Positions 40,171 to 47,974 of a stretch of 64,000 bases of DNA are shown here, piece after piece. The stretch spans positions 68,526 to 132,525 of the forward strand of contig NZ_SCRH01000030.1 of the NCBI RefSeq assembly GCF_004298145.1, in the 5' to 3' direction. Position 1 is the stretch's first letter, and every line of letters starts with the position of its first letter. The notes beneath the pieces were generated by a model. The model had not been told where the DNA came from and searched no databases. It worked only from the letters and a program-made list of their open reading frames with translations. The DNA comes from Mycobacterium sp. (GTDB lineage Bacteria > Actinomycetota > Actinomycetes > Mycobacteriales > Mycobacteriaceae). Both the position numbers and the translations under genes were made by a program.

Positions 40171-40734
40171 ATGGTCGCTCCAACGTTCGACATCAGCAAG
40201 AGCAGCGCCGCCCGAGCAACCCAGGCCAACGGCGAGGGCCTGCGGTATCGACTGGACGTCGTCGCGGCCAGCGCCGTCGATGTCGTGCAATCGGCCGGCG
40301 GTTGGCTCTACGACCGTGCGATGGCCGGCTGGGAGGTGACCGTGTTGCTCCCGCAGGGCTGCGACACCCGGTCGCTGCGGATCCTGGGCGTGCGGGCATC
40401 GGACCTCGAGTCATCCCTCGCCGCGCTGGCGGCGGGCTCGACAAGCCTGGCCGTCAGCGCCGAGGCATTCACCACCTACGCGCGGGTGCGTGCCGCCGTG
40501 CTCGAATCGCTGGACAACCGGCTCACGGAGGTCGCGTTGTGGGGTGACGGGTGGCCGCTGGAAGTGAACCGTACGACCACCCGCGCCCAACACCTGCTCA
40601 GCGGCGCCGCGCGCACGTTCAAGGGTTATGCGCTTGCGGCAGAGGGTATTTCGGATACCGCCGTCGCTCCCGCCGAGAAGCTGCTGTGCGACGTGGGTTC
40701 GGGGGCCGACTCAGAGCTGATCCGGCTCGACTAG
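40171..40734 (+). CDS. Conserved hypothetical protein
   Basis: 187 aa with host-like codon usage; YRLDVVAASAVDVV.SAGGWLYDR.MAGW.VTV motif recalled from other mycobacterial hypotheticals; no catalytic motif recognised. Confidence 0.7.
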   Translation: MVAPTFDISKSSAARATQANGEGLRYRLDVVAASAVDVVQSAGGWLYDRAMAGWEVTVLLPQGCDTRSLRILGVRASDLESSLAALAAGSTSLAVSAEAFTTYARVRAAVLESLDNRLTEVALWGDGWPLEVNRTTTRAQHLLSGAARTFKGYALAAEGISDTAVAPAEKLLCDVGSGADSELIRLD

Positions 40735-40738
40735 GCCT

Positions 40739-41443
40739 ATGAAGAAGTACCACAAACACGCGCTGCTTTACCTACACGAGACGATCTCGTTGGGATCCGG
40801 ACGACGCGACCCCTTCACCGAGATCTTCGCCGACACCTATCAGCCGATGATGGAACAACTGGGCGCCCGGCTGTTCGCGATCTGGGAATCCACCCCGTAC
40901 AACGGTCACTGGCCGCAGGTGACGGTGATCTGGGAGATCGACGGGTTCGCCGACTACGCCCGGATCGGCGCCGCTCAGGCTCGCGGTGGCAGCCACGAGG
41001 CCGCGGCCGGTAACTGGGCGGCGTTTCTGGCCGACGTCGGCGCGTCGGGCGAGGGGCGAATCATGTACGCCGGACCCAGCAACAGGACGCTCGCCCAGCT
41101 GCGCGAGGCCAATTTCACTGCGCCGCTGGTGATCCAGGAGATCATGCAGACCAAGCCGGGCCGCCAGGACGACTACATCCGGGAGCTGGAGCGGCTCTAC
41201 GTGCCGTGGTCGGAACGTACCGGGAAGCGCTGGCTCGGTTCGTTCACCACCACTTTCCGCTACAACGAAGTCATCCACTACTGGGCGTTGGACGGGGGAT
41301 GGGACTGCTTCGCCGAGCACTACCCCTCGTGGAAAGAGAGCCCGCCCGCCGAGATCATCACCTGGATGAGCGTGGCACCCGCGCTGCGTGACGGCTGGGA
41401 AGATTCCATCCTGGCCGCCCTACCGCCATCGCCGCTGCAGTGA
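40739..41443 (+). CDS. Tandem NIPSNAP-like dimeric alpha+beta barrel protein
   Basis: Two similar halves (LYLHETI..../LVIQEIM.TKPGR..DY; GARLFAIW/GKRWLGSF; VTVIWE/VIHYWA). Confidence 0.6.
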   Translation: MKKYHKHALLYLHETISLGSGRRDPFTEIFADTYQPMMEQLGARLFAIWESTPYNGHWPQVTVIWEIDGFADYARIGAAQARGGSHEAAAGNWAAFLADVGASGEGRIMYAGPSNRTLAQLREANFTAPLVIQEIMQTKPGRQDDYIRELERLYVPWSERTGKRWLGSFTTTFRYNEVIHYWALDGGWDCFAEHYPSWKESPPAEIITWMSVAPALRDGWEDSILAALPPSPLQ

Positions 41444-45552: not shown

Positions 45553-47054
45553 ACGACATTTCGGTCGGCATCATCGGCGCCGGCCCCGGCGGCCTGGCGC
45601 TGGGAATCATGCTGTCACGTAACGGGTTTGGCAACTTCACCATCTTCGACCGGGAAGACGGCGTCGGGGGCACCTGGCGGATCAACACCTACCCGGGACT
45701 CGCGTGCGACGTCAAGTCGCACCTCTACTCGTATTCCTTCGACCTGAACGCCCACTGGTCACGGCTGTGGTCGGGACAACCCGAGATCCTGGACTATTTC
45801 CAGCGAAGTGTCGATAAGTACGGTCTGCGGCCGCACCTGAAGCTGCGCACCGAGATTTGCGCGGCACACTGGGATCCGGATACCCAACTATGGTGCCTGA
45901 CCACCCCGGCCGGCGAACGGCATCACTTCAACGTCGTCGTGTCGGCCGTGGGCCTGTTCACCCGGCCGCTGCTCCCCGAACTCATCGAACAAGAGCCGTT
46001 CACCGGAACGGTGATGCACTCGTCGCGCTGGGACCACTCGATCCCGCTGGAAGGCAAACGGATTGCCGTGCTGGGTACCGGATCTACCGCCGCCCAGCTG
46101 ATCCCGGAATTGGCCAAGGTGGCCGACAAGGTGTATTCGGTGCAACGATCGGCGACCTGGATACTGCCCAAGCCGGACCGGCACTACACACGGCGGGAGC
46201 GCTGGGCCTTCGCGCACCTCCCGTTCGCCAAGAAGCTCTACCGGACCCGGCTGTGGCTGCGCAGCGAATCCAACGTCTCGGTGATCGAGCACGGCAGCGA
46301 AAAGACCGAGCAATTCACCGCTGTCGCACTGGGACTGCTCGAGAGGACCGTCGACGATGAGGAATTGCGCCGCAAGCTCACACCGGATCATCCGATGGGC
46401 TGCAAGCGGCTGGTGTTCTCCTCGGACTACCTGTCCGCACTGACCCGGCCCAACGTCGAGGTGGTGACCAGCGCGGCGCGCTACCTGCGCGCCCGATCCC
46501 TTCTCACCGAAGACGGCACCGAACGCGAGGTCGACCTGGTGGTGTGCGCCACCGGCTACGCCGCCGCCGACTATCTCGGGGAACTGGACGTGTCCGGCGA
46601 ACACGGAATCACGCTGCGGCAGGTCTGGCGCGACGGGGCGCACGCCTACCTCGGCATGGCGGTGCCGGGCTTCCCAAATTTCTTCATGCTGTACGGGCCG
46701 AACACCAACGTCGGCTCCAACAGCGTCATCTTCATCCTCGAAGCCCAGGCACGCTACGTCGTGCGGGCGCTGCGCTACCTGCGGCGCAACCGCAAGCGCT
46801 ACGTCGCGGTGCGTCCCTCGGCGCTGGCCGATTTCGTCGCCAAGATCGACCGCTGGATGGCGGGTACCGTGTGGACCACCCAGTGCAGCAACTACTTCCG
46901 CGCTCCCAACGGGCGAGTGGTCACCCAGTGGCCGCGTAGCGCGCGTACCTTCTGGGGAATGACGCGCAGGTTCAGGCCGGCCGATTTCCGCTTCGAAGCG
47001 CCCGCCATCCCCGTCTCGGCCGCGGCCGCCGCGCGCGAGCGGGGCACGCGATGA
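45549..47054 (+). CDS. Type I Baeyer-Villiger monooxygenase
   Basis: GAGPGG, GGTWRINTYPGLACDV, fingerprint FTGTVMHSSRWD (FxGxxxHxxxW), GTGSTA, ATGY. Confidence 0.92.
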   Translation: MNDISVGIIGAGPGGLALGIMLSRNGFGNFTIFDREDGVGGTWRINTYPGLACDVKSHLYSYSFDLNAHWSRLWSGQPEILDYFQRSVDKYGLRPHLKLRTEICAAHWDPDTQLWCLTTPAGERHHFNVVVSAVGLFTRPLLPELIEQEPFTGTVMHSSRWDHSIPLEGKRIAVLGTGSTAAQLIPELAKVADKVYSVQRSATWILPKPDRHYTRRERWAFAHLPFAKKLYRTRLWLRSESNVSVIEHGSEKTEQFTAVALGLLERTVDDEELRRKLTPDHPMGCKRLVFSSDYLSALTRPNVEVVTSAARYLRARSLLTEDGTEREVDLVVCATGYAAADYLGELDVSGEHGITLRQVWRDGAHAYLGMAVPGFPNFFMLYGPNTNVGSNSVIFILEAQARYVVRALRYLRRNRKRYVAVRPSALADFVAKIDRWMAGTVWTTQCSNYFRAPNGRVVTQWPRSARTFWGMTRRFRPADFRFEAPAIPVSAAAAARERGTR

Positions 47055-47974
47055 CGGAGCCGGACGGTGCCGATCGCTTCGACCCCGCGCTGCGCGCGGC
47101 CGCGAGCATGCGCACCGACTTTTCTTCGGCCGCAATCCAACTCACCCGTGGACCGTTCGACGAACGCCGCCGTCTCACCGCCGGGCAGACCGATGCGCGC
47201 GAGGTCCGGATCGCCGAGGACAACGCCGCCGGCGTCGGGGTGCGCATCTATCGCGGCGGGCCCGAGCCGGCGCCGGTCGTTGTTTATTGCCACGCCGGCG
47301 GTTTCGCGCTGGGAAACCTCGATACCGATCACCGCCAGTGTGTGGAGCTAGCCCGCCGCGCCCGCTGCACGGTGGTGTCGGTGGACTATCGGCTGGCGCC
47401 GGAACACCCCTATCCGGCCGCGCTCGAGGACGCGAGCGCCGTGCTGCGCTGGGTGGCCGCCGACGCGGCCGCGCTCGGGGTGGATCCGGCACGACTGGCC
47501 GTCGCGGGCAGCAGCGCCGGCGCCGCCCTGGCCGCCTGCCTGACGCACGGCGCCGCCGACGGCTCGTTGCCGCCGGTGGCTTTTCAGCTGCTGCACCAGC
47601 CGGTGCTCGACGACCGGGCCACCCCGTCGAAGGCGGAATTCCGCACCAGTCCCGCCTTCGACGGCGAGGGCGCCGACCTGATGTGGCGCCACTACCTGGG
47701 CCCGGCGGCCGGGTCGGCGGCCATGGTGCCCGCCCGGCGAACCGGATTTGCCGGTCTACCACCGGCTTTGATCACCTGCGCCGAGATCGACCCGTTCCGT
47801 GACGAGGCCATCGACTATGCGCAGCGGCTACTGCACGCCGGAGTCTCGACCGAGCTGCACGTGTTTCCGCGCGCCTGCCACGGCTTCGATTCACTGCTGC
47901 CGGAATGGCCCGGCTCGCAACGATTGTTCGCGCTGCAGGGCCACGCCCTGTCGTGCGCGTTGCACGGCGGCTAA
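47051..47974 (+). CDS. HSL-family esterase/lipase (alpha/beta hydrolase)
   Basis: HAGGF oxyanion motif, VDYRLAPEHPYPA, GSSAG nucleophile, DPFRDE, HGF. Confidence 0.9.
   Translation: MTEPDGADRFDPALRAAASMRTDFSSAAIQLTRGPFDERRRLTAGQTDAREVRIAEDNAAGVGVRIYRGGPEPAPVVVYCHAGGFALGNLDTDHRQCVELARRARCTVVSVDYRLAPEHPYPAALEDASAVLRWVAADAAALGVDPARLAVAGSSAGAALAACLTHGAADGSLPPVAFQLLHQPVLDDRATPSKAEFRTSPAFDGEGADLMWRHYLGPAAGSAAMVPARRTGFAGLPPALITCAEIDPFRDEAIDYAQRLLHAGVSTELHVFPRACHGFDSLLPEWPGSQRLFALQGHALSCALHGG

What the first reader, a model, noticed from the sequence alone, without database searches (positions are those of the whole stretch)
40171..47974. Tightly coupled nine-gene operon: hypothetical, NIPSNAP-like, P450, MDR, aldolase, NTF2, SDR, BVMO, esterase
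Seen: gaps of 10 bp or less, or 4-bp stop/start overlaps, across all nine genes. Known: BVMO-esterase pairs convert ketones to cleavable esters or lactones; HpaI-type aldolases cleave 4-hydroxy-2-oxoacids; BaiE/LinA-type NTF2 proteins are dehydratases or dehydrochlorinases using Tyr/Asp/His, and the equivalent Y..D and H are visible here. Inference: hydroxylation, oxidation, oxygen insertion, hydrolysis, dehydration and retro-aldol cleavage in one transcript. An aldolase with a P450 and a BVMO but no ring-cleavage dioxygenase is an unusual combination and could also be a tailoring or biosynthetic route.
Basis: partly seen in the sequence, partly recalled or inferred. Interest (0 to 1): 0.72.

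Follow-up and report, generated by a model that had tools for sequence, protein, structure and literature searches.

The report
Modular mycobacterial P450–aldolase–BVMO catabolic regulon
The nine tightly packed genes are real and form one unit of a larger, uncharacterised, co-regulated breakdown pathway that is shared by many non-tuberculous mycobacteria, and its Baeyer-Villiger enzyme has been deleted again and again in related species.

Summary
Nine same-strand genes (40171-47974) are joined by 4-bp overlaps or gaps of 10 nt or less. All family labels and catalytic motifs check out. The organism is a relative of the Mycobacterium avium complex.

- The operon is the local form of a modular system. 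One module is a NIPSNAP-like Dabb protein plus a P450. The other is MDR, HpcH aldolase, SDR, BVMO (sometimes absent) and esterase. In four checked genomes the two modules lie at separate sites; in others they are fused as 7 or 9 genes.
- A 31-nt element, CTTTACAAAT-N9-AGTGTCACGCTG, occurs only twice in the 6.1-Mb genome. One copy lies upstream of g1 and one upstream of the thioesterase-LLM-ACAD unit. It marks every module in related genomes, even unlinked ones, so it defines a regulon of about 18 genes (32.1-48.0 kb). This regulon includes a TetR, a lactonase, thioesterases and a CoA-transferase.
- The BVMO is the least conserved member. It is intact in 55 of 86 loci, and the tree needs at least 19 state changes. 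The SnoaL gene is lineage-specific and often lost.

The most likely function is inducible catabolism of an oxygenated lipid-like or alicyclic acid. The substrate is unknown. No published functional study was found.

The parts
32132..32677 (-). TetR-family regulator, the likely repressor of the regulon
   Evidence: Pfam TetR_N. Its orthologue lies within the island in all arrangements. In split genomes it is divergent from the P450 module, with the 31-nt element in the gap between them.
32720..33547 (-). Acyl-CoA thioesterase (4HBT_3 type), called 'Thio1' here
   Evidence: Pfam 4HBT_3 and 4HBT_3C. It always occurs paired with the lactonase. In the 7-gene and split forms the pair is divergent from the operon or from the MDR module.
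33561..34442 (-). SMP-30/gluconolactonase-like (SGL) putative lactonase
   Evidence: Pfam SGL, 163 bits. In other genomes it sits directly divergent from g2 or from the MDR gene.
34461..34937 (-). Conserved 158-aa protein with no Pfam family
   Evidence: No Pfam hit. It is conserved within the island in many loci, where it carries the working label 'SRPBCC'. That label is not backed by any family hit.
35004..35034 (+). Copy 1 of the 31-nt element CTTTACAAAT-N9-AGTGTCACGCTG, a promoter/operator-like site
   Evidence: It is one of only two exact sites in the 6.1-Mb genome. It ends 35 nt before the thioesterase start. It is at least 95% conserved across 30 loci.
35070..35960 (+). Second acyl-CoA thioesterase (TesB-like), called 'Thio2'. 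The TTG 35070 start is inferred.
   Evidence: Pfam 4HBT_3, 4HBT_3C and Acyl_CoA_thio. The longer ORF from 34953 would contain the conserved element, so the start was placed downstream of it.
35966..36886 (+). Luciferase-like (LLM) flavin/F420 oxidoreductase
   Evidence: Pfam Bac_luciferase, 164 bits. It is linked to the island in all arrangements.
36887..38062 (+). Acyl-CoA dehydrogenase
   Evidence: The ACAD label is from reading the ORF translation; this gene was not scanned against Pfam. Conserved in the island; in rearranged islands it is preceded by its own copy of the element.
38050..38817 (-). DUF427 protein
   Evidence: Pfam PF04248. Conserved in the island.
38840..40009 (+). Family III CoA-transferase
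   Evidence: Pfam CoA_transf_3, 389 bits. Conserved in the island.
40024..40054 (+). Copy 2 of the 31-nt element, the likely promoter/operator of g1-g9
   Evidence: It starts 14 nt after the CoA-transferase stop and ends 116 nt before the g1 ATG. A copy lies upstream of g1 across the 9-gene-type loci (82 instances counted).
40171..40734 (+). g1: Mycobacterium-restricted 187-aa protein with a tentative LmbE/PIG-L-like fold
   Evidence: It has 822 homologues; all that carry a name are 'hypothetical'. The AF2 model has pLDDT 73, and only 1 of 5 models converged. Foldseek finds MshB, LnmX and the GalB hydratase at TMq 0.5-0.59. The first Zn-ligand His of the family motif appears to be replaced by Ser34 (hand alignment). 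A 42% homologue with its own element lies after the esterase in a split genome.
40739..41443 (+). g2: NIPSNAP-like protein made of two fused ferredoxin-like (Dabb) halves
   Evidence: Pfam NIPSNAP, 27.4 bits. AF2 pLDDT 94. Foldseek matches uncharacterised 'putative monooxygenases', PenE, an anthrone-oxidase-like protein, coproheme decarboxylase and NIPSNAP proteins. Only 166 representative clusters match among 1.84 billion proteins.
41440..42681 (+). g3: cytochrome P450 (alternative start ATG 41461)
   Evidence: Pfam p450. Motifs FGRGQHFCIG, EIVR and GGTET are present. It is 95% identical to M. intracellulare P450s. The best solved relatives are CYP125, CYP130, CYP126, CYP142 and CYP124, at 107-144 bits only. 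No ferredoxin gene is in the window.
42683..43651 (+). g4: medium-chain dehydrogenase of the polyol-dehydrogenase type
   Evidence: Pfam ADH_zinc_N and ADH_N. The catalytic Zn motifs GVCGSD and HEVAG, and the cofactor motif GQGSIG, are present. The best solved relatives are sorbitol, threonine, arabinitol and idonate dehydrogenases, at 60 bits or less.
43662..44420 (+). g5: class II HpcH/HpaI-family pyruvate aldolase
   Evidence: Pfam, 100 bits. It scores below the NCBIfam HpaI, GarL and RhmA equivalog cut-offs. The QH, VR, IET and GPxDL motifs align with the same motifs of solved hydroxyketoacid aldolases such as 6r62.
44417..44827 (+). g6: SnoaL_4 (NTF2-like) protein, a lineage-specific member that is often lost
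   Evidence: Pfam SnoaL_4, 72 bits. Y19, D24 and H66 are invariant in 65 orthologues. It is intact in 58 of 86 loci, and the tree needs at least 12 state changes.
44824..45552 (+). g7: classical SDR
   Evidence: Pfam adh_short. Motifs TGAAGGQG, NCAG and YGSSK are present.
45549..47054 (+). g8: type I Baeyer-Villiger monooxygenase, forming its own orthologous group
   Evidence: Both BVMO fingerprints (FTGTVMHSSRWD and GGTWRINTYPGLACD) and two dinucleotide-binding motifs are present. The solved relatives are CHMO, STMO and PAMO. The own genome holds 13 BVMO-type matches (this gene plus 12 paralogues), the closest paralogue 46% identical. The gene is intact in only 55 of 86 related loci.
47051..47974 (+). 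g9: hormone-sensitive-lipase-family esterase
   Evidence: Pfam Abhydrolase_3, 215 bits. Motifs HAGG, GSSAG and DPFRD are present. The NCBIfam LipP1 score is 231 bits, below the cut-off of 350.
47971..49095 (-). Convergent Zn-dependent alcohol dehydrogenase. It bounds the unit and is a flank gene, not a fixed member.
   Evidence: Pfam and NCBIfam hits. In genome G097, which lacks the island, it lies 87 bp from the FAD-oxidase gene.

Best explanation
The nine genes form a translationally coupled transcription unit. It most likely starts at its own conserved promoter/operator element (40024-40054) and ends at the convergent ADH gene.

It is the M. avium-complex-type arrangement of a modular regulon, probably controlled by a TetR. 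This regulon is widespread in slow-growing non-tuberculous mycobacteria and absent from part of the genus. Its parts are:
- Module 1: a two-domain Dabb/NIPSNAP-like protein plus a P450.
- Module 2: a polyol-type MDR, a class II HpcH aldolase, an SDR, a BVMO (sometimes absent) and an HSL-type esterase.
- Constant companions: an SGL lactonase with an acyl-CoA thioesterase, the LmbE-like g1, a second thioesterase, LLM, ACAD, DUF427 and a family III CoA-transferase.

The most likely function is substrate-inducible catabolism of an oxygenated aliphatic or alicyclic carboxylic compound, lipid-like or terpenoid-like. The inferred steps are:
1. The P450 hydroxylates the substrate, using redox partners encoded elsewhere.
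2. The MDR and SDR convert alcohols to carbonyls.
3. The aldolase splits a 4-hydroxy-2-oxo acid into pyruvate and a carbonyl fragment.
4. The BVMO with the esterase or lactonase cleaves a ketone. This is a dispensable branch, possibly acting on the aldolase's carbonyl product rather than upstream of it.
5. The CoA-handling genes process the acid fragment.

Shown here: gene identities, intact catalytic motifs, coupling, conserved modular synteny, the shared cis element and the recurrent BVMO loss. Inferred: co-transcription, the repressor assignment, the order of steps and the class of substrate.
For: - Coupling and family assignments.
- Colinear conservation across species.
- Shared element: a 31-nt sequence found only twice in the 6.1-Mb genome, with none expected by chance. 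It has 201 distinct instances in 96 related loci, all with identical spacing and all pointing toward the downstream gene.
- In four genomes where the modules are unlinked, the MDR-aldolase-SDR-BVMO-esterase module carries the element. In three such genomes (two of them the same), the TetR-adjacent P450 module carries it too. This argues for one regulon.
- The same accessory families accompany the operon in three different gene orders.
- The gene content is typical of catabolism: TetR, thioesterases, ACAD, CoA-transferase and lactonase, with no PKS, NRPS, terpene synthase or transferase genes.
- The island is an indel between two flank genes that are adjacent in a genome lacking it.
- BVMO-less operons keep the P450, MDR, aldolase and SDR intact in 25-28 of 31 loci.
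Against:
- There is no experimental literature on any member.
- No enzyme reaches an equivalog-level match, so the substrate is unknown.
- No ferredoxin or reductase for the P450 lies in the window.
- No dehydratase or hydratase of a standard family is present to make the aldolase substrate.
- The element's -10-like hexamer (CACGCT) is not a SigA consensus, so reading it as a promoter is uncertain.
- A WS/DGAT gene follows the P450 module in one split genome. That hints at lipid ester synthesis rather than breakdown.
Confidence: 0.55

Rival explanations
1. Envelope-lipid remodelling, like the mymA operon. Under this reading the BVMO, esterase, SDR and ADH-type enzymes modify endogenous long-chain keto or hydroxy lipids. 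The P450 provides the hydroxylation, and the products are re-esterified.
For: - The mymA operon of M. tuberculosis has the same four enzyme types, plus DGATs and FadD13 (table in PMC6018540).
- A WS/DGAT gene follows the P450 module in a split genome.
- In this genome the island abuts a FadD plus yrbE/mce lipid-import operon.
- The P450's nearest solved relatives are lipid and sterol hydroxylases.
Against: - The BVMO is not a mymA orthologue. It is at most 46% identical to any paralogue, and 36-40% in genomes that lack the island.
- The regulator is a TetR and the gene order differs.
- A pyruvate aldolase, a lactonase, a polyol-type MDR and a CoA-transferase have no obvious role in lipid tailoring.
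- The BVMO is lost repeatedly without decay of the other genes.
- The location next to mce is not conserved.
Confidence: 0.15
2. One stress or detoxification regulon made of independent modules. The modules share a regulator but act on different small molecules, so there is no single substrate series running through the P450, aldolase and BVMO.
For: - The modules exist unlinked in several genomes.
- The BVMO and SnoaL genes come and go independently.
- A 26% homologue of g2 in another genus sits with an amidohydrolase, a SnoaL_4 protein and an ABC transporter, not with a P450.
Against: - Unlinked modules still keep the same highly specific cis element.
- The modules have been fused into a translationally coupled unit in most of the 86 related loci examined.
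- The same companion families travel with them through three rearrangements.
Confidence: 0.15
3. Biosynthesis or tailoring of a secondary metabolite.
For: P450, BVMO, SnoaL-like and Dabb/ABM-like proteins are all common tailoring enzymes. The fold of g2 resembles anthrone-oxidase/PenE-type monooxygenases.
Against: - No scaffold-forming enzyme (PKS, NRPS, terpene synthase), transferase or exporter lies in or next to the island in any of the three arrangements.
- Thioesterase, ACAD, CoA-transferase and pyruvate aldolase genes point to breakdown.
Confidence: 0.07
4. The BVMO is the long-sought enzyme that converts keto-mycolates to wax-ester mycolates in M. avium-type species.
For: From memory, wax-ester mycolates are thought to arise by Baeyer-Villiger oxidation of keto-mycolates, and they occur in the M. 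avium complex but not in M. tuberculosis. The island is present in M. avium-complex relatives and absent from part of the genus. No paper in the library names the enzyme.
Against: - A co-translated esterase would destroy the product.
- The aldolase, P450 and lactonase have no role in that chemistry.
- The island also occurs in species of the M. simiae group, which from memory are not known for wax-ester mycolates.
- The BVMO is deleted in close relatives of species that keep it.
Confidence: 0.03

Closest known systems
mymA operon of M. tuberculosis (Rv3083-Rv3089)
   Same: An EthA/MymA-type BVMO, an HSL-family esterase (LipR), an SDR and a zinc ADH sit together in one mycobacterial operon (PMC6018540).
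   Different: - The BVMO here is a separate orthologous group, at most 46% identical to any paralogue.
- The gene order differs.
- This island has a TetR rather than the regulator of mymA, which from memory is the AraC-type VirS.
- It adds a P450, a Dabb protein and a class II aldolase.
- It has no DGAT or FadD13 in the unit.
Alcohol dehydrogenase - BVMO - esterase/lactonase routes: subterminal alkane oxidation, the chn/cpn cycloalkanol clusters, acetone acmAB (from general knowledge; reviews listed)
   Same: The enzyme logic is the same: secondary alcohol to ketone to ester or lactone to acid plus alcohol. The SDR, BVMO and alpha/beta hydrolase are adjacent.
   Different: - Here the BVMO is dispensable and has been lost repeatedly.
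- The constant core is P450, MDR, aldolase and SDR.
- No aldehyde dehydrogenase is present.
- A pyruvate aldolase is built into the module.
Camphor (cam) and cineole pathways: a P450 followed by a dehydrogenase and a BVMO (from memory)
   Same: A P450 sits next to a medium-chain dehydrogenase, as with camC and camD. Oxygen insertion then opens a ring without a dioxygenase. An LLM-family gene is nearby; from memory, the type II BVMOs of the camphor pathway belong to that family.
   Different: No redox partner genes are present. No sequence relationship beyond the superfamily level was shown. The aldolase and the CoA-handling genes have no counterpart.
Hydratase-aldolase pairs of meta-cleavage lower pathways (HpaH-HpaI, GalB-GalC)
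   Same: g5 is an HpcH/HpaI-family aldolase whose catalytic motifs align with those of solved members. The tentative LmbE-like fold of g1 also matches the hydratase GalB.
   Different: - No ring-cleavage dioxygenase is present.
- g5 scores below the equivalog cut-offs.
- g1 appears to lack the first Zn-ligand His, and its model is weak.
- g1 is not adjacent to the aldolase.
EthB-EthD, a P450 with a small Dabb-fold partner of unknown role, from Rhodococcus ether degradation (from memory)
   Same: A P450 is constantly paired with a ferredoxin-like alpha+beta barrel protein that has no cofactor motif.
   Different: g2 is a fused two-domain, NIPSNAP-like protein and was not shown to be related to EthD. 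No EthA or EthC-type redox partners are present.

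Membership tests
Type I Baeyer-Villiger monooxygenase (g8) | Fingerprints FxGxxxHxxxW[P/D] and [A/G]GxWxxxx[F/Y]P[G/M]xxxD, plus two dinucleotide-binding motifs | tested here: met
   FTGTVMHSSRWD, GGTWRINTYPGLACD, GAGPGG and GTGSTA are present. The solved relatives are CHMO, STMO and PAMO at E 1e-53 to 1e-62.
Type I Baeyer-Villiger monooxygenase (g8) | NADPH- and O2-dependent conversion of a ketone to an ester | not testable with these tools
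   This needs an enzyme assay.
Cytochrome P450 (g3) | Cys-ligand loop FxxGxxxCxG, ExxR motif and I-helix acid-alcohol pair | tested here: met
   FGRGQHFCIG, EIVR and GGTET are present. Pfam p450 scores 73 bits.
Cytochrome P450 (g3) | Dedicated ferredoxin or reductase encoded alongside, as in self-sufficient operons | tested here: not met
   No ferredoxin-like ORF lies in the 64-kb window.
HpcH/HpaI class II aldolase (g5) | Family-level profile match, with the catalytic His and Arg and the metal-binding Glu and Asp conserved | tested here: met
   Pfam scores 100 bits against a cut-off of 25. The QH, VR, IET and GPADL motifs align with the same motifs of 6r62/7o5i.
HpcH/HpaI class II aldolase (g5) | Equivalog-level identity with HpaI, GarL or RhmA, which would give a named substrate | tested here: not met
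   Scores are 124.8, 113.5 and 77.4 bits against cut-offs of 368.8, 393 and 441.
BaiE/LinA-type NTF2 dehydratase or dehydrochlorinase (g6) | Significant sequence relationship to BaiE or LinA | tested here: not met
   LinA (3a76) scores E=0.18, and BaiE is not among the 60 hits shown (96 matched at E up to 10). The best hits are the uncharacterised proteins 2rfr, 2chc (Rv3472) and 3b8l.
BaiE/LinA-type NTF2 dehydratase or dehydrochlorinase (g6) | Tyr/Asp/His catalytic residues | tested here: inconclusive
   Y19, D24 and H66 are present and invariant in 65 orthologues. Their structural equivalence to the BaiE or LinA residues was not tested.
NIPSNAP / dimeric alpha+beta barrel proteins (g2) | Profile match and a ferredoxin-like beta-alpha-beta fold | tested here: met
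   PF07978 scores 27.4 bits against a cut-off of 22.3, on the N-terminal half only. The AF2 model has pLDDT 94 with two such halves. NIPSNAP structures 1vqs and 1vqy match at TMt 0.68-0.81.
LmbE/PIG-L metallohydrolase or hydratase (g1) | The family fold | tested here: inconclusive
   Foldseek top hits are MshB, LnmX and GalB at TMq 0.5-0.59. The model has pLDDT 73, and only one of five models converged.
LmbE/PIG-L metallohydrolase or hydratase (g1) | Zn-binding His-x-x-Asp plus a distal His | tested here: inconclusive
   By hand alignment the first His position is Ser34, which is invariant. Asp37 and His141 are also invariant. No formal alignment to the family was made, and no Pfam hit was found.
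mymA operon (Rv3083-Rv3089) | A BVMO, an HSL esterase, an SDR and a Zn-ADH in one unit | tested here: met
   g8, g9, g7 and g4 supply these. The mymA composition is taken from PMC6018540.
mymA operon (Rv3083-Rv3089) | Orthology of the BVMO, plus DGAT and FadD13 genes in the operon | tested here: not met
   The closest paralogue in the own genome is 46% identical, and the best hits in genomes lacking the island are 36-40%. No DGAT or FadD gene lies in the unit.

The most novel reading that the evidence does not exclude
This is an undescribed, dioxygenase-free catabolic pathway of non-tuberculous mycobacteria, defined by a private promoter/operator element. A P450 paired with a Dabb-fold partner and a class II pyruvate aldolase form the fixed core. 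The BVMO/esterase step is a side branch that natural selection has removed at least 15-19 times. One possible reason is that EthA/MymA-like BVMOs carry a cost, for example uncoupled NADPH oxidation or activation of toxic thiocarbonyl compounds.
Probability: 0.2. Interest if true: 0.7.

Novelty: new variant of a known kind. Interest (0 to 1): 0.42.

Why it matters
Non-tuberculous mycobacteria such as the M. avium complex carry many more oxidative gene clusters than M. tuberculosis, and almost none have been assigned a function. This work adds several handles on one of them:
- It turns a list of nine enzymes into a delimited regulon of about 18 genes, with a recognisable cis element that can be used directly as a reporter or as bait for a repressor and its ligand. 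That is the shortest route to finding the substrate.
- It shows that a class II pyruvate aldolase is wired to a P450 and a BVMO without any ring-cleavage dioxygenase. If this is one pathway, it is an unusual way to reach central metabolism.
- The repeated clean deletion of one BVMO from an otherwise maintained operon is a natural experiment on how dispensable, or how costly, EthA-like monooxygenases are. From memory, this enzyme class is known in M. tuberculosis for activating thioamide prodrugs.

Tried and rejected
- Simple sigma-70 promoter and terminator scans: nothing above the shuffled expectation.
- KstR-type operator (TnnAACnnGTTnnA): one site, 24 kb away, at chance level.
- Short palindromes in the intergenic gaps: nothing convincing.
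- Rfam scan of 30-50 kb: no match.
- Literature: no functional paper was found on the NIPSNAP-P450 pair, on HpcH with BVMO, or on the M. avium aldolase cluster. The only hit is a SNP table naming adjacent 'NIPSNAP family protein' and 'cytochrome P450' genes in M. chimaera.
- Wax-ester mycolate idea: no supporting literature in the library, and the gene content and species distribution fit poorly.
- Genomic context of distant g2 homologues: the metagenome contigs were too short. A 26% homologue in another genus is not next to a P450, so the pairing is specific to the mycobacterial orthologues.
- Pfam-family search of the genome for NIPSNAP, run to reach the named control genomes: it returned nothing anywhere and is uninformative.
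- Ferredoxin search in the window: negative.
- SDR against solved structures at E 1e-40: no hit.
- Early assumption that loci from other genomes could not be read in Python: this was wrong, because they are bundled in multi-record files.

Full report
**Observation.** The stretch 40171-47974 holds nine + strand ORFs with the high third-position GC of real genes in this genome (0.83-0.87). Their junctions, read from the sequence, are:
- g1/g2: +4 nt
- g2/g3: GTGA overlap
- g3/g4: +1 nt
- g4/g5: +10 nt
- g5/g6, g6/g7, g7/g8, g8/g9: ATGA overlap at each

Two starts are ambiguous. Public annotations start the P450 at ATG 41461 (406 aa), which would give a 17-nt gap. The BVMO could start at ATG 45534. 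NCBIfam gives only sub-threshold matches, so no enzyme has a named substrate.

The catalytic signatures are intact:
- P450: Cys loop, ExxR and GGTET.
- MDR: catalytic zinc ligands and a GxGxxG motif.
- Aldolase: His, Arg, Glu and Asp motifs aligned with those of solved HpcH aldolases.
- SDR: TGxxxGxG, NxAG and YxxxK.
- BVMO: both fingerprints.
- Esterase: HAGG, GSSAG and DPFRD.

No + strand terminator-like site above the shuffled expectation lies inside the unit. The unit ends at a convergent Zn-ADH gene (47971-49095).

**Organism and distribution.** The P450 is 95% identical to proteins of M. intracellulare and M. paraintracellulare, and 89% identical to M. avium. Orthologues of the NIPSNAP-like g2 (76-97% identity) occur in about two thirds of sampled genomes of the genus and in one sister genus. 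Elsewhere in the family only 26% homologues were found. Named carriers include M. colombiense, M. mantenii, M. arosiense, M. europaeum, M. paraffinicum, M. scrofulaceum, M. parascrofulaceum, M. intermedium, M. interjectum, M. heidelbergense and M. sherrisii, plus many soil metagenome bins.

In this genome, and in G114, G105 and G034, the island lies between an FAD-linked oxidase gene and the Zn-ADH gene. In G097, which lacks the island, those two genes are 87 bp apart. The island is therefore accessory DNA. Downstream, the window continues with a GntR regulator, an acyl-CoA synthetase and a yrbE/mce operon. That neighbourhood is not conserved in other carriers.

**The operon is one arrangement of a modular system.** A DNA search of 121 genomes of the genus and a tblastn synteny analysis of 96 related loci show three forms:
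- Nine-gene form, as here.
- Seven-gene form: g2-P450-MDR-aldolase-SDR-BVMO-esterase. The aldolase gene directly abuts the SDR gene, so there is no SnoaL gene. There is also no g1 in front.
- Split form: g2-P450 sits next to a TetR at one site, preceded there by a second P450 and followed by a WS/DGAT gene. MDR-aldolase-SDR-BVMO-esterase sits at another site, megabases away or on another contig.

In the seven-gene and split forms, an SGL lactonase and 4HBT_3 thioesterase pair lies directly divergent from the first gene of the unit. In the window the same pair is at 32720-34442, separated from the operon by inserted genes. The other flank genes of the window accompany the operon in the other forms too, in different orders. 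These are the TetR, a 158-aa protein without a family, a TesB-like thioesterase, LLM, ACAD, DUF427 and a family III CoA-transferase. Conserved content with shuffled order is good evidence for functional linkage.

**A private cis element ties the parts together.** Aligning the intergenic regions of 30 loci exposed two blocks conserved at 95% or more, separated by a variable spacer. The consensus is CTTTACAAAT-N9-AGTGTCACGCTG. The window has two exact copies:
- 35004-35034, which ends 35 nt before the TesB-like thioesterase-LLM-ACAD unit.
- 40024-40054, which starts 14 nt after the CoA-transferase stop and ends 116 nt before g1.

None is expected by chance, and these are the only two in the whole 6.1-Mb genome. 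In the related loci there are 201 distinct instances. All have the same spacing, and all are oriented toward the gene downstream:
- Before g1 and the thioesterase unit in the nine-gene form.
- 32-38 nt before g2 in the seven-gene form.
- Before ACAD, LLM or CoA-transferase in rearranged islands.
- In the split genomes, in the TetR/P450-module gap, before the MDR module, and again after the esterase.

In split genome G011 the copy after the esterase precedes a 187-aa ORF that is 42% identical to g1. So g1 is a regulon member in the split form, and g1-like ORFs were also found in two of nine checked loci of the seven-gene clade. In the window's lineage g1 has moved, apparently with its promoter, to the head of the operon.

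The element reads as a -35-like TTTACA, a 17-nt spacer, and TGT-CACGCT, which resembles an extended -10. The strongly conserved non-consensus bases suggest that it doubles as an operator, most simply for the island's TetR. The promoter reading and the TetR assignment are both inferences. A weaker third site (4 mismatches) lies about 60 kb beyond the window and was not pursued.

**The BVMO is the least stable member.** Intact copies among 86 loci with enough sequence:

| Gene | Intact loci (of 86) |
|---|---|
| g2 | 86 |
| P450 | 83 |
| MDR | 81 |
| SDR | 79 |
| Aldolase | 77 |
| Esterase | 73 |
| g1 | 71 |
| SnoaL | 58 |
| BVMO | 55 |

In 15 loci the SDR gene abuts the esterase gene, with gaps of 0-97 nt. 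Seven more loci keep only BVMO remnants, and six lack both the BVMO and the esterase. The DNA search shows the same deletions independently. On a tree built from g2, P450 and MDR, the BVMO state needs at least 19 changes, SnoaL at least 12, and g1 only 2. The many different junction lengths also argue for many separate events.

The BVMO-less operons are not decaying. Of 31 such loci, the P450 is intact in 28, the MDR in 27, the aldolase in 26 and the SDR in 25. Three of the loci lacking the MDR, aldolase and SDR are split-type loci where those genes are expected to lie elsewhere. The own genome holds 13 BVMO-type matches (this gene plus 12 paralogues). The closest paralogue is 46% identical, and genomes without the island offer only 36-40%. 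So g8 is its own orthologous group, not the mymA or ethA orthologue, and paralogues might substitute for it.

**The unannotated proteins.**
- g2 belongs to a small family: 166 representative clusters among 1.84 billion proteins. It folds with high confidence (pLDDT 94) into two fused ferredoxin-like halves. Its structural neighbours are uncharacterised 'putative monooxygenases', the monooxygenase PenE, an anthrone-oxidase-like protein, coproheme decarboxylase/chlorite dismutase proteins and single-domain NIPSNAP proteins, at TM about 0.5-0.6. Its role beside the P450 is open. It could be a cofactor-free oxygenase or isomerase, or an accessory protein.
- g1 is restricted to Mycobacterium. Its model is weak (pLDDT 73, one of five models) and resembles the LmbE/PIG-L fold, including MshB and the hydratase GalB. 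By hand alignment, the first zinc-ligand His of that family is a conserved Ser here.
Its significant solved relatives are uncharacterised SnoaL_4 proteins. LinA scores E=0.18, and BaiE does not appear among the 60 hits shown.
- The MDR is closest to polyol and hydroxy-acid dehydrogenases (sorbitol, threonine, arabinitol, idonate), at 60 bits or less.
- No ferredoxin gene is in the window.
- No Rfam family matches in 30-50 kb.

**Most likely function.** The gene content points to inducible catabolism rather than biosynthesis. It includes a TetR, two acyl-CoA thioesterases, an ACAD, a CoA-transferase, a lactonase and a pyruvate aldolase. It has no scaffold-forming enzyme, transferase or exporter. 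I read it as a pathway for an oxygenated aliphatic or alicyclic carboxylic compound:
1. The P450 hydroxylates the substrate.
2. The MDR and SDR make carbonyls.
3. The aldolase releases pyruvate plus a carbonyl fragment.
4. The BVMO, with the esterase or the SGL lactonase, cleaves a ketone.
5. The CoA-handling genes finish the acid fragment.

The loss pattern fits better with a BVMO/esterase branch that is dispensable. It may act on the aldolase's carbonyl product, which also matches the gene order, or on an alternative entry substrate. All of this ordering is inference, and the substrate is unknown.

**Rivals.** These are envelope-lipid remodelling in the manner of the mymA operon, an operon with the same four enzyme types (PMC6018540); a regulon of independent detoxifying modules; tailoring of a metabolite; and the keto-mycolate to wax-ester idea, which fits poorly. 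Each is weighed in its own section.

**Known or new.** I found no functional study of these genes. The only literature trace is a SNP table listing the adjacent 'NIPSNAP family protein' and 'cytochrome P450' genes of M. chimaera. Two earlier first-stage notes of this scan describe orthologous clusters in other genomes in similar terms. They are not independent evidence.

The enzyme logic is of a known kind. The following are new details:
- The fixed coupling to a class II aldolase and a Dabb protein.
- The private cis element.
- The modular history.
- The recurrent BVMO loss.

**Verdict.** This is a real, conserved but uncharacterised catabolic regulon. It is of moderate interest and now has clear experimental handles.

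Noticed in passing
window 50074-50203: A perfect 55-bp tandem repeat (2.4 copies) lies in the gap between a 146-aa gene and the GntR regulator gene, upstream of the FadD/yrbE/mce operon. It looks like a MIRU/VNTR-type mycobacterial repeat.
   Followed up: partly
genome contig C22:193038-193068 (- strand), about 60 kb beyond the window's end: A third, degenerate copy of the 31-nt element (4 mismatches) lies between a crotonase-like gene and an acyl-CoA-synthetase-like gene. Its orientation does not match either gene, so it may be chance.
   Followed up: partly
window 49095-56976: Downstream of the island lies a context that, from memory, resembles the M. tuberculosis mce1 locus: Zn-ADH (-), a thioesterase-like gene, a 146-aa protein, GntR (-), an acyl-CoA synthetase, yrbEA/B and mce genes. 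This adjacency to the island is not conserved in other carriers.
   Followed up: partly
L017 (G011:C1:161801-181800) 8164-13063: In a split-type genome the g2-P450 pair is preceded by a second P450 and followed by a WS/DGAT wax-ester/triacylglycerol synthase gene. An LLM gene lies next to the TetR.
   Followed up: partly
L032 (G260:C1:3126001-3142000) 7538-10127: A 26% homologue of g2 in another genus sits between an Amidohydro_2 gene and a SnoaL_4 gene, next to an ABC transporter and a CoA ligase. A Dabb/SnoaL_4 pairing therefore recurs without any P450.
   Followed up: no
window 16711-16724: There is a single match to the KstR-type operator pattern TnnAACnnGTTnnA, 24 kb from the island. 14 of 100 shuffles give at least one match, so it is probably chance.
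   Followed up: no
G073, G141, G013 and G070, between the FAD-oxidase and Zn-ADH orthologues: The interval that holds the island here is 4.7, 7.7, 6.9 and 22 kb long in these four genomes, which lack the full cluster. The site appears to be a variable hot spot with different cargo.
   Followed up: no
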